Shown: one piece after another, positions 60,001-64,000 of the stretch | Numbering within the stretch: position 1 is the first letter of the stretch | Layout: each line of letters opens with the position of its first letter | Source of the DNA: an uncultured Alphaproteobacteria bacterium | GTDB taxonomy: Bacteria > Pseudomonadota > Alphaproteobacteria > UBA3830 > JAIRWN01 | NCBI GenBank assembly: GCA_964369315.1 | Contig: CAYJEJ010000001.1 | Span: 69,619-133,618 of the forward strand | Direction: 5' to 3' | Length of the DNA: 64,000 nucleotides | Made by a program: the position numbers

Positions 60001-63000
60001 AGCCAAAACAACATTATCATGCGTTTTTATTGGGTCAATGATGCCATATTTATTAACATCTTCATCATGAATTTTTTGCACTGCCAAGACATTACAGTCA
60101 TCATAGCAAGAGATTAGTTCCTTAAGACAATTAGCCCCAACTATCAAATCATCTGCCAGTAGCACGGCAAAAGGCTCATCCCCAATAATATGCCTTGCAC
60201 ACCAAACAGCATGCCCTAAACCAAGGGGTTTTTGCTGACGCACATATGACACTTTGCCCGCTTCAAGCACCATTTTATCGACTTGATTTAAGAGGTCTTC
60301 ACGTCCACGACTTTTCAATAAAAACTCTAGTTCACCTGTATAGTCAAAATGGTCTTCTATGGCGGTTTTTCCACGTCCTGTGACGAATATAAGTTCTTCT
60401 ATGCCAGCATCGAGAGCCTCCTCAACAGCATATTGTATTAAGGGCTTGTCTATTACAGGGAGCATCTCTTTTGGCATCGCTTTTGTTGCTGGTAAAAAAC
60501 GCGTCCCCATGCCGCCAACTGGAAAAATTGCCTTTTTTATTTTTTTCATAATTTGTTAATTATAATAGTAAAGTATCAATAACACACAGCCTAGCAGAAT
60601 TCTATAAATTACAAATGGGAAAAATGTCTTTTTTTCTACCCAGCTATTCATTACCCTTAATGTTAAAACGCCAAAAATAAACGCCATCAAGCACGATAAC
60701 ACCAAGCCATCGCTAGATATTTCATCAACGGCAGTTAAAACCTTTATGGTCTTTAAGAACACCGCTCCACAAACGGGGATGACGGACATCATCATCGAAA
60801 ACTTAAATGAAACACTTCGTCCATATCCCAAAAATCGCATCCCTGTCAAGCAACAACCCAATCTGCTCGCACCAGCGATGATGGAACAGACCTGAAACAA
60901 GCCAATTATGAACGCATCTTTAATAGAAATCTCGCTCTCTTTACAATCTTTTCTAACAGCAAAACGGTCAGCAACCATTAACAGTGTGCCAAAACCAATC
61001 GCACTAGTTCCAACAACGAGGAGCGAATTTAACCTGAAGGGAAAATAAATCTCAGCCACCCCAAATATTATAATAGTTGGTAAACTTGCAACGATTAATG
61101 AAAGGGTATATTGCGTGTCTTCATCTCTTTGTTGGTTTGTGATGAGTTTAAGCAAGCCCATTATTGCACTAAATATTTGGGTTCTAAAAATCAAAAATAT
61201 CCCGCCCAAAGAACCAAAGTGCACAACAACATCAGCGGCATGTCCCGAGTCTGGCCAGTGCATGAAAATGGGTAAAATCGCCAAATGTGCTGACGAGCTA
61301 ACAGGGATAAATTCGGTTATGCCTTGAATTACACCTGCGACTATTGATTGACATATTTCCATTATGATATTTACTGAATATTATAGTTATTCTTTTAACA
61401 TAGTATTGCTTTTAGCTAAAGTAGGTAAAATTTATGATGACCCTTTATCATTATTGGCTGTGTCCCTTTTGCAGAACAGTAAGGCTTGTTTTAAATGAAA
61501 AAAACATCGAATATAACCTGATAATAGAAAGATATTGGGAAAAAAGAGAAGATTTTTTGAAATTAAATAAATCTGGACAAGTCCCTTTTTTGGAAGACAT
61601 TTCGGGTAATATGGTTGTTGGAAGTGGAGCAATAATTGAATATATAAAAGAAAAATATGACACTAAATCTGCTTTAGAAGGAAAAGATTTTGAACATCGC
61701 CTTAAGATAATCAGCATATGTGATTGGCTTAATCAGACTTTTTATAGTCAGGTGTCTCATATGATGCTTTATGAAAAAGTATTAAAACGTCATATGAAAG
61801 AAGGTGGACCAGACTCTTTAATGATTAGGCGAGCAAATGATAATATGCGAAATCAATTTGAATACTTGTCATCGTTAATAGAGCAGGAAAATTATTTGGC
61901 GGGCAGTGAGCTAACGCTTGCAGATTTAACAGCAGCGGCACATATATCTTGTTTGGATTATATATCTATAATTTCATGGGATAAGTATCCTGAAGTTCGC
62001 GATTGGTACGCAAAAGTCAAGTCTCGCCCAAGCTTTAGACCAATATTAGAAGACCACGTTCCTGCAATAACGCCACCACCTTTTTATAAAGAACTGGATT
62101 TTTGAGTGTTAAGATGAACAAACCAGTTTACATAATGGAGAAAGTAGACTAACCTTCTCTAGTATTTTTGTCCCCATCGTCTAGCGGTCTAGGACATCGC
62201 CCTTTCAAGGCGGAAACACGGGTTCGATTCCCGTTGGGGATACCAAGCTGATTTGTAATGCTCCAAATATGAAGATTATTCCCATAAAACTTCCTATTAT
62301 CTCAGTGAATTCAAATTTGCTGGATGCACTGAAAAATCATTTGCCAAAAATTGACGAAAACTCCGTATTAGCTATTACATCAAAGGTTGTAAGCCTTTCA
62401 GAGGGAAGAGTTGTTAATGAAAACACAAACAAAACTGAGCTAATAAAAAAAGAAAGCGATTTCTACATAAACCCTAGGCAAGATAGCCCGCATCCTATAT
62501 TTATCACCATAAAAAATGGCATATTAATACCCTCAGCGGGTATAGATGAGTCCAATACGGATGCTGGGTTTGTGCTCTACCCTGAGGACGTTTTTGATTC
62601 TTGCTACCAAATTTGGCAGGATTTGAGAGAATTTTATAAATTAGATAATTTTGGCGTCATCATCACTGACAGCCACACAACGCCAATGAGACATGGGGTC
62701 ATAGGGATTGCACTTAGTTGGTGTGGTTTTAAGCCGACGAGAAATTATATAGGTGAAAAAGATATTTTTCAAAAGCAACTGCGGGTTACCAAGGTAAATG
62801 TCATCGATGCGTTGGCCACAACGGCAGTATTTGCAATGGGCGAAGGAAATGAACAAACCCCAGTTGCCGTAATGTCAGAGATTAATAACATAGAATTTAC
62901 CAGTTTTCCTCCCTCGCAATTAGATAAAGATAGTATTAAGATTGAAATTAAAGATGACCTTTATGAGCCGCTTCTTTGTGGGGCGACATGGTGCAAAGGT

Positions 63001-64000
63001 GGGGGAGGCGTTAAGTGATATCAGAAGTTTTAATAAGTTTGGGTGCTAACCTAGGTGACCGATTAGAGACGTTTCGTCTTGCTATTGAAAGAATGAAAGC
63101 TATTGGGCTGGATGATATCGTTGAGTCGGTAGTGATAGAAAATAAAGCTGTCCTACCTCCTGACGCACCAAAGTCTTGGGATATTCCGTTTCTTAACATG
63201 GTTATTAGGGCAAAAACAAACCTAAAACCCCAAGAATTGCTGAAAAAATTGCAAAATATTGAGATTGAACTGGGCAGACCAAAACAACATGTCAAATGGA
63301 GCCCAAGGGGTATTGACTTGGACATTCTGCTTTGGAAAAATCAAAACATTAATGAAGTGGACATAACCGTTCCTCATAAGAGCTTGATGGTAAGACCTTT
63401 TTTATTGCATTTGATTGCAACCATTGCTCCAGATTGGACGATAGATGATGAATGTAATCAAAAAAATGCAGCCGACGAAAAAACCATTTCAGAAATTGCA
63501 TACGAGAAGGTTCAGCTAAAATCTTTGTTTACAAAAAGCTTTGTCACCAAACCGAGATTAGTTGGGATTTTAAACATCACGCCAGATTCTTTTTCGGATG
63601 GCGGTAATTATTTTAATCCAAAAACGGCCATTTCGCATGGAATAGCGATGATTAATCAAGGAGCAAGTGTAATAGAGCTTGGTCCCATGTCATTGAGGGT
63701 CGATGCCAAAGTGCTTAGCCAAGAAGAGGAATGGGCTCGGCTGGAGCCAGTCTTGTCTGGGCTAAAAAATGAACAAATAAACTGTCAAATCAGTGTCGAG
63801 ACTTTGTATGATGAAAATGCATTAAAAAGCCTAGGCTATGGAATCCATTGGATAAATAATACAGCGAATTTATTATCTGATGCAACCCTGCGAGAGCTAG
63901 CGAAAAATAAAATAAAGGTTGTATTAATGCACGAGTTGGGTGTTCCGCCAGTTAAAACCCGCATAATTGACCCAAGAGAAAACGCTTTGGAAGTGGTAAA

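What the first reader, a model, noticed from the sequence alone, without database searches (positions are those of the whole stretch)
62269..64000. CofE-family gene translationally coupled to a fused folK-folP: FolC2-type folate pathway arrangement
A 249-aa CofE (F420-0:gamma-glutamyl ligase) family ORF ends in a GTGA overlap with the start of a fused HPPK-DHPS gene. F420 biosynthesis is not expected in this kind of alphaproteobacterium. From established comparative-genomics and Chlamydia work, CofE homologs clustered with folate genes act as alternative dihydrofolate synthase / folylpolyglutamate synthase (FolC2) where canonical folC is missing, and Chlamydia also uses a FolKP fusion. This linkage in an alphaproteobacterial endosymbiont-like genome suggests the same non-canonical solution, possibly shared by lateral transfer among intracellular bacteria.
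Basis: partly seen in the sequence, partly recalled or inferred. Interest (0 to 1): 0.55.

Follow-up and report, generated by a model that had tools for sequence, protein, structure and literature searches.

The report
FolC2-type folate operon in a symbiont
A small-genome Holosporales-like bacterium has no normal FolC enzyme and very probably uses a CofE-like ligase, next to its fused folK-folP gene, to add glutamate to folate; this swap is already known from Chlamydia and Wolbachia, so it is a well-supported new example, not a new system.

Summary
A 249-aa CofE-family ORF (62269-63018) ends in a GTGA overlap with a fused HPPK-DHPS gene. That gene is 441 aa in full and runs past the window end, and folA follows it.

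The CofE-like protein fits NCBIfam TIGR04132, "putative folate metabolism gamma-glutamate ligase" (FolC2), far better than true CofE (303 versus 125 bits). In a tree it sits inside the FolC2 clade, well apart from bona fide CofE.

The 869-kb, 99%-complete genome has folE, folB, folKP, folA, SHMT and ThyX. It has no canonical FolC (only MurE and MurF match weakly), no CofC, CofD or CofG, and no PabB or CADD-type pABA synthase.

Across the 58 genomes of its order, 12 carry FolC2 and 38 carry FolC. None carries both.

Chlamydia CT611 (FolC2) was shown in 2007 to complement an E. coli folC mutant, and the same cluster was described in Wolbachia. This is therefore a new member of a known kind, and this scan has met it before on other DNA.

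Local particulars:
- The gene order is permuted to tRNA-Glu, folC2, folKP.
- There is no recognisable pABA synthase.
- Trees suggest the folC2/folKP genes moved laterally more than once within the order.

The parts
62170..62245 (+). tRNA-Glu (anticodon UUC), 23 nt upstream of folC2. It may be co-transcribed with it or mark an insertion point.
   Evidence: ARAGORN. A tRNA-Glu lies directly upstream of folC2, in the same orientation, in all three other genomes of the same family. It is absent next to folC2 in two more distant relatives.
62269..63018 (+). folC2: a CofE-fold gamma-glutamyl ligase, 249 aa, predicted to be the dihydrofolate synthase / folylpolyglutamate synthase
   Evidence: PF01996 at 1.8e-34. 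TIGR04132 at 303.5 bits over 1-240/241, against TIGR01916 cofE at 124.9 bits. AlphaFold model with pLDDT 84 and TM 0.77 to A. fulgidus CofE 2PHN. It keeps all 31 residues that are at least 95% conserved in 92 FolC2 sequences. It lies in the FolC2 clade with 100% support.
63004..63008 (+). GGAGG Shine-Dalgarno motif for folKP, embedded in the codons of the FolC2 C-terminal tail KGGGGVK
   Evidence: Read directly from the sequence: 6-nt spacer to the GTG at 63015. The closest relative has the same GGAGG followed by an ATGA overlap. Among the 15 aligned homologues, the glycine-rich tail is seen only in the window protein and its two nearest Holosporales homologues.
63015..64000 (+). folKP: fused HPPK and dihydropteroate synthase. 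The first 328 of 441 codons are here. The gene ends about 340 nt past the window end and is followed by folA.
   Evidence: Pfam HPPK and Pterin_bind in one frame. TIGR01498 folK at 99.6 bits (cut-off 54.1) and TIGR01496 DHPS at 225.1 bits (cut-off 162.6) on the full-length protein. folA is PF00186 at 3.3e-27.

Best explanation
The 249-aa gene is a FolC2-type enzyme. It has the CofE fold and is a nucleotide-dependent gamma-glutamyl ligase that works on folate instead of coenzyme F420.

By analogy with CofE, it should activate the free carboxylate of its substrate as an acyl phosphate and then join L-glutamate to it. It would first turn the dihydropteroate made by FolKP into dihydrofolate (dihydrofolate synthase activity). 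It would then extend the gamma-glutamyl tail of tetrahydrofolate (folylpolyglutamate synthase activity). In this way it replaces the canonical FolC that the genome lacks.

The gene is translationally coupled to folKP and is followed by folA. Together these form a late-folate module: dihydropterin diphosphorylation, condensation with pABA, glutamylation and reduction. GTP cyclohydrolase I and FolB are encoded elsewhere and supply the pterin. pABA is presumably taken from the host or environment, because no pABA synthase is recognisable.

What is shown: the gene content, the family assignment, the absence of FolC and of F420 genes, and the complementary FolC/FolC2 distribution. What is inferred: the two enzyme activities, the nucleotide used, and pABA import.
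For: Family assignment:
- Best model is TIGR04132 at 9e-91, aligned end to end. CofE models score 2.4 times lower and below their cut-offs.
- The protein has the CofE fold.
- 13 of the 31 family-conserved residues are identical in all four bona fide CofE outgroup sequences (K39, D93, S95, N96, D134, R141, D165, D180 among them). FolC2-specific residues such as T37, S38, Q196 and T197 are also present.
- In the tree, the FolC2 clade is separated from true CofE with 100% support, and the window protein lies inside it.

Genome content (99.2% complete):
- No FolC; the weak hits are MurE and MurF.
- No CofC, CofD or CofG.
- folE and folB are present, as are folKP and folA.
- The folate users SHMT and ThyX are present.

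Distribution:
- In the order's 58 genomes, 12 have FolC2 and 38 have FolC. None has both, and all 12 FolC2 genomes have FolKP.
- 45 of 50 FolC2-bearing genomes from many phyla lack FolC.

Context and experiment:
- 35 of 91 FolC2 loci have folKP within the fetched flank.
- The stop/start overlap and the internal SD are conserved in the family.
- Chlamydia CT611 complements the E. coli folC mutant (PMC1971073; restated in PMC4161248).
Against: - No experiment exists for this protein or any close relative. The nearest sequence is 55% identical, and I did not measure identity to the tested CT611.
- The score of 303.5 bits is below NCBIfam's curated cut-off of 350 for TIGR04132.
- The published complementation does not separate dihydrofolate synthase activity from polyglutamylation.
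- Five of 50 FolC2 genomes, including Wolbachia and Rickettsia, also keep a canonical FolC. FolC2 is therefore not always a replacement and may have a narrower role there.
- No pABA source is encoded: no PabB and no CADD-type enzyme. The pathway is incomplete unless pABA is imported.
Confidence: 0.85

Rival explanations
1. It is a genuine coenzyme F420:L-glutamate ligase (CofE), as public annotation names its closest homologues.
For: It is a member of Pfam PF01996. Its fold and several conserved residues are shared with A. fulgidus CofE. NCBI names the two nearest MAG homologues 'coenzyme F420-0:L-glutamate ligase'.
Against: - TIGR01916 scores 124.9 bits against a cut-off of 180.65.
- The genome has no CofC, CofD or CofG.
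- True CofE sequences from the same phylum form a separate clade across a long, 100%-supported branch.
- The gene is translationally coupled to folKP.
Confidence: 0.02
2. It only elongates polyglutamate tails (FPGS activity), or only adds the first glutamate. The other step is done by an unrecognised enzyme or skipped because folate is salvaged.
For: - Many FolC2 genes, notably in Patescibacteria, have no folKP in the fetched flank, as expected for salvage-type use.
- Wolbachia and Rickettsia keep both FolC and FolC2, which hints at a division of labour.
- The published complementation does not resolve the two activities.
Against: This genome encodes FolKP and FolA, so it makes dihydropteroate and needs a dihydrofolate synthase, and no other candidate ligase was found. 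CofE itself adds both the first and later glutamates (PMC8498797).
Confidence: 0.1
3. The module is a decaying remnant. Without a pABA synthase the pathway is non-functional and folate is taken from the host.
For: No PabB and no CADD-type enzyme. FolB is divergent, at 40.9 bits and below the NCBIfam cut-offs. The genome is strongly reduced at 869 kb.
Against: - All five folate genes are intact open frames.
- FolC2 retains every family-conserved residue.
- The coupled folC2-folKP arrangement is conserved in four genomes of the family, at 55% identity for the nearest homologue.
- pABA import is a common solution (general knowledge, not tested here).
Confidence: 0.03

Closest known systems
Chlamydia trachomatis CT611 (FolC2; COG1478; NCBIfam TIGR04132) in the operon folB-folKP-folA-folC2-ct610
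   Same: - A CofE-family ligase clustered and co-oriented with a fused folKP and with folA.
- The genome lacks FolC and all F420 genes.
- Both fall in the same NCBIfam family and the same tree clade as chlamydial MAG sequences.
- The function was shown by complementation of E. coli folC (PMC1971073).
   Different: - Gene order here is tRNA-Glu, folC2, folKP, folA. The usual order is folB, folKP, folA, folC2.
- folB and a canonical folE sit together elsewhere in the genome, whereas Chlamydia lacks folE.
- There is no CT610/CADD pABA synthase.
- The score is below the family's curated cut-off.
Wolbachia and Rickettsiaceae folate clusters (folB-folKP-folA-folC2, with or without a CADD-like gene)
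   Same: Alphaproteobacterial intracellular bacteria with the same FolC2 and the same 'type B' fused FolKP.
   Different: The two Wolbachia genomes and two of the four Rickettsiaceae genomes tested also keep a canonical FolC; the two Tisiphia genomes do not, and neither does this genome. Gene order differs. Some carry the CADD-like gene next to the cluster.
Archaeoglobus fulgidus CofE (PDB 2PHN, 2G9I, 7ULD), F420-0:gamma-glutamyl ligase
   Same: Same fold (TM 0.77, Foldseek E 4e-17; profile E 3e-26). The GIDxSN, TD and MGEG motifs are shared. Presumably the same acyl-phosphate ligation chemistry applies.
   Different: About 24-26% identity. The family-specific motifs differ (TDSHTTPMR, WCG, GNEQTP). 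FolC2 has an extra conserved C-terminal segment (EDLYxPLL) beyond the Pfam domain. The predicted substrate is a pteroate or folate, not F420-0.
Escherichia coli FolC (Mur-ligase family; TIGR01499)
   Same: The same predicted reactions: dihydrofolate synthase and folylpolyglutamate synthase.
   Different: An unrelated fold and family, so this is a non-orthologous displacement. FolC is absent here but present in 38 of 58 genomes of the same order.

Membership tests
FolC2 / TIGR04132 (putative folate metabolism gamma-glutamate ligase) | Scores at or above the curated NCBIfam cut-off of 350 bits | tested here: not met
   The score is 303.5 bits (E 9e-91), aligned 1-242 to 1-240/241. All 12 members found in this order score 262-338 bits, also below the cut-off. 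The cut-off therefore looks too strict for this lineage. It does not look like a sign of a different family.
FolC2 / TIGR04132 | Groups with folate-cluster CofE homologues and apart from bona fide CofE in a phylogeny | tested here: met
   92 FolC2-type sequences, including Chlamydiota, Wolbachia, Rickettsiaceae and Cardinium, are separated from 4 over-cut-off CofE sequences by a 100% SH-aLRT branch. The window protein lies inside.
FolC2 / TIGR04132 | Physical clustering with folate biosynthesis genes | tested here: met
   A 4-nt overlap with folKP, and folA next. The same pairing occurs in the three other genomes of the family.
FolC2 / TIGR04132 | The genome lacks canonical FolC | tested here: met
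   A whole-genome six-frame TIGR01499 search finds only MurE and MurF at about 28 bits. The genome is 99.2% complete.
FolC2 / TIGR04132 | The genome lacks the rest of the F420 pathway | tested here: met
   No CofD, no CofC, and no CofG over cut-off.
FolC2 / TIGR04132 | DHFS/FPGS activity (rescue of an E. coli folC mutant) | not testable with these tools
   Shown only for C. trachomatis CT611 (PMC1971073).
CofE, F420-0:L-glutamate ligase (TIGR01916) | Scores at or above the cut-off of 180.65 bits | tested here: not met
   124.9 bits.
CofE, F420-0:L-glutamate ligase (TIGR01916) | CofE fold and the shared conserved residues | tested here: met
   TM 0.77 to 2PHN. D93, S95, N96, D134, R141 and others are identical in all four bona fide CofE outgroup sequences. 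Which of these bind metal or GTP is from my memory of the 2PHN paper and was not checked here.
Fused FolKP (HPPK-DHPS) | Both domains in one open frame, each over its curated cut-off | tested here: met
   441-aa ORF. TIGR01498 at 99.6 bits (cut-off 54.1) and TIGR01496 at 225.1 bits (cut-off 162.6).

The most novel reading that the evidence does not exclude
In this lineage the folC2-folKP pair would be a laterally acquired cassette that landed downstream of tRNA-Glu and displaced the order's native FolC and native-type FolKP. Such displacement would have happened at least three times in one order of reduced symbionts, including inside a single genus. In some cases the whole cassette moved (this family f1 and genus g14). 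In another, folC2 moved alone (family f4).

The support is as follows:
- The FolC/FolC2 distribution is perfectly complementary.
- There are two FolKP types, separated by a 99% branch, which track FolC2 linkage.
- Monophyly of genus g14's FolKP is rejected (p-AU 0.0002).
- Monophyly of the order's FolC2 is rejected (p-AU 0.026).

For this genome's own family the direction of transfer and the insertion event are not demonstrated.
Probability: 0.4. Interest if true: 0.4.

Novelty: new member of a known kind. Interest (0 to 1): 0.25.

Why it matters
The main value is in annotation and metabolism.

- It fills the apparent DHFS/FPGS gap in this symbiont's folate pathway.
- It shows the organism probably makes its own folate from GTP plus imported pABA.
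- It flags a systematic mis-naming. Homologues in this order fall under the TIGR04132 cut-off, and some are labelled "coenzyme F420-0:L-glutamate ligase" in public records, which wrongly suggests F420 metabolism.

The order-wide either/or pattern of FolC and FolC2 is a clean natural experiment. It supports functional equivalence of two unrelated ligases and suggests repeated gene displacement in reduced genomes.

FolC2 has no solved structure and its substrate and nucleotide specificity have not been characterised, so any tractable homologue is useful. None of this is conceptually new.

Tried and rejected
- Bona fide CofE / F420 reading: rejected. No cofC, cofD or cofG; the score is below the CofE cut-off; the clade is separate.
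- Hidden FolC: the two weak TIGR01499 matches are MurE and MurF.
- CADD-type pABA synthase: I first confirmed that CT610-like genes next to FolC2 in a chlamydial and a Wolbachia locus match PF14518 and PF03070. The genome has none by HMM or by tblastn with those two proteins (best E 0.05). PabB is also absent.
- ThyA is absent; ThyX is present instead.
- Idea that the FolKP fusion travels with FolC2: rejected. The fusion is order-wide.
- AU test that all FolKP of the order form one clade: not rejected (p 0.32). Cassette import into this genome's own family is therefore not proven.
- Promoter and terminator scan: sites were no more frequent than in shuffles, and no internal terminator was found. 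No transcript structure is claimed.
- Literature search for the NCBIfam family name found nothing. A broad endosymbiont search found nothing specific.

Full report
**Observation.** The ORF list and the sequence confirm a 249-aa ORF at 62269-63018 (+). Its TGA stop overlaps the GTG start (63015) of the next ORF, giving GTGA. Pfam puts the first protein in PF01996 (F420_ligase, 1.8e-34). The second carries HPPK and Pterin_bind domains in one frame. The window ends inside the second gene. On the contig it is 441 aa with a complete DHPS domain, and both halves exceed the NCBIfam cut-offs for folK and DHPS. A 168-aa DHFR gene (folA) follows 16 nt later, and then obg on the opposite strand closes the unit. 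A tRNA-Glu(UUC) gene ends 23 nt upstream of the CofE-like gene. A GGAGG motif at 63004-63008 lies 6 nt before the GTG, inside the codons for the glycine-rich C-terminal tail of the first protein.

**What the CofE-like protein is.** Against NCBIfam, the best model by far is TIGR04132, "putative folate metabolism gamma-glutamate ligase". It scores 303.5 bits (E 9e-91) and aligns over the whole length. The three CofE models give 92-125 bits, all below their cut-offs. The score is under the curated TIGR04132 cut-off of 350, but so are all 12 members found in this order (262-338 bits).

A profile of 15 homologues matches only Archaeoglobus fulgidus CofE among solved structures (E 3e-26). An AlphaFold model (pLDDT 84) superposes on 2PHN with TM 0.77, and nothing else in the PDB matches.

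I built a tree of 92 FolC2-type sequences plus four bona fide CofE proteins taken from Pseudomonadota genomes (over the TIGR01916 cut-off). The two groups are separated by a long branch with 100% support. The window protein sits in a 99%-supported clade with the three other genomes of its family, one of which is titled "Holosporales bacterium". It keeps all 31 positions that are at least 95% conserved in the FolC2 set. Thirteen of these are identical in all four true CofE outgroup sequences.

**Genome context.** The genome is 869 kb in 15 contigs, 37.8% GC and 99.2% complete.
- Six-frame HMM searches find no canonical FolC. The two matches of about 28 bits are MurE and MurF.
- There is no CofD, no CofC, and no CofG above a 37-bit radical-SAM match.
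- GTP cyclohydrolase I and a divergent FolB lie side by side on another contig.
- SHMT and ThyX are present as folate users; ThyA is absent.
- No chorismate-binding enzyme (PabB) is found. No CT610/CADD-type pABA synthase is found by HMM or by tblastn with verified CADD-like neighbours of FolC2 from other loci.

The organism thus encodes every recognisable step from GTP to tetrahydrofolate except pABA supply and the usually unidentifiable pyrophosphatase. The CofE-like protein is the only candidate for the glutamylation step.

**Comparative evidence for function.** In the 58 species genomes of the same order, 12 carry a FolC2-type gene and 38 carry a FolC above cut-off. No genome has both, and all 12 FolC2 genomes have FolKP. 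One genus is split: 4 genomes have FolC2 and the other 8 have FolC. Relatives are not independent, so I give no statistic, but the pattern is what non-orthologous displacement predicts.

A scan of species-representative genomes found at least 580 genomes with a relative. They include Holosporales, Paracaedibacteraceae, Rickettsiaceae, Wolbachia, Chlamydiota, Cardinium, Francisellaceae, Legionellaceae, Verrucomicrobiota and many Patescibacteria. Of 50 such genomes, 45 lack FolC. The five that have both include two Wolbachia and two Rickettsiaceae. folKP lies within the fetched flank in 35 of 91 loci.

**Published work.** De Crécy-Lagard et al. 2007 predicted FolC2 from exactly this reasoning. 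[quoted passage not shown] Adams et al. 2014 confirmed the operon folB-folKP-folA-folC2-ct610 and the FolKP fusion in all chlamydiae (PMC4161248). The catalytic scheme I assume comes from CofE: a GTP- and Mn2+-dependent acyl-phosphate mechanism in which one enzyme adds both the first and later glutamates (PMC8498797).

**What is particular here.**
- *Gene order.* The usual order is (folB)-folKP-folA-folC2, seen in Wolbachia, Rickettsiaceae, chlamydial MAGs and the FolC2 members of genus g14. This genome and its three family relatives have tRNA-Glu, folC2, folKP, with overlapping or abutting stop and start codons and the internal GGAGG. In at least one of those relatives folA is not adjacent.
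- *FolKP fusion.* The fusion is not linked to FolC2. 51 of 58 genomes of the order have HPPK, nearly all in frames of about 400-480 aa, and every copy I fetched is a single fused ORF.
- *Two FolKP types.* FolKP proteins fall into two types separated by a 99% branch. One type holds all sampled FolC-type genomes of the order, plus family f4, whose folC2 is unlinked. The other holds the FolKPs that sit in FolC2 clusters of Wolbachia, Rickettsiaceae, Chlamydiota and others, together with this genome's family and the FolC2 members of genus g14.
- *Tests of transfer.* Holding genus g14 together is rejected (p-AU 0.0002). Holding the whole order together is not rejected (p 0.32). For FolC2 itself, monophyly of the order's sequences is rejected at p 0.026. 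These are quick trees. They support repeated lateral movement of folC2, sometimes together with folKP. They do not fix the direction of transfer for this genome's lineage.

**Verdict.** It is a further member of a known, experimentally anchored family in a lineage where it is currently under-annotated. Earlier follow-ups in this scan reached the same conclusion for the same system in Wolbachia and Bdellovibrionales genomes. The modest added value lies in three things: the strict FolC/FolC2 complementarity within one order, the permuted tRNA-Glu-linked arrangement, and the missing pABA source.

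Noticed in passing
window 62170-62245 and loci L016, L018, L019: A tRNA-Glu gene sits directly upstream of folC2, a glutamate ligase, in all four genomes of the family. In one of them the anticodon is read as CUC instead of UUC. It could be an integration landmark or a shared transcript.
   Followed up: partly
G000 contig C3, locus L007:7501-8835: Right after folB-folE come a stand-alone 261-aa protein that matches only the N-terminal (glutamine-amidotransferase-like) domain of eukaryote-type biotin-protein ligase (PF09825, 3.5e-64; no NCBIfam match) and a BioY biotin transporter.
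   Followed up: no
order relatives G017 and G020 (loci L130, L131): Two genomes that are 91-92% complete have a fused FolKP but neither FolC nor FolC2. This is either an assembly gap or a third solution for the glutamylation step.
   Followed up: no
loci L061, L080, L085, L100, L076: A Rickettsia sp. MAG, a Rickettsiaceae MAG, two Wolbachia and an Opitutales MAG carry both a canonical FolC (340-380 bits) and FolC2. The two ligases coexist in some lineages.
   Followed up: partly
locus L004:7071-8775 (contig just beyond the window end): A DpnII-type restriction endonuclease ORF of only 182 aa matches profile positions 109-277 of 278, so it is apparently N-terminally truncated. It lies next to an intact D12-class adenine methyltransferase.
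   Followed up: no
locus L004:5444-6832: A 462-aa ORF downstream of rplU has no Pfam match.
   Followed up: no
public annotation of homologues P0002, P0004, P0100: Close FolC2-type homologues in MAGs are named 'coenzyme F420-0:L-glutamate ligase' or 'F420-dependent oxidoreductase'. The likely cause is that they fall below the 350-bit TIGR04132 cut-off.
   Followed up: partly
locus L038 (chlamydial MAG) 4169-5486: The FolKP frame there covers only query residues 3-265 in one ORF, so it may be a frameshifted or split folKP. A Vut_1 vitamin-uptake transporter gene follows the CADD-like gene.
   Followed up: no
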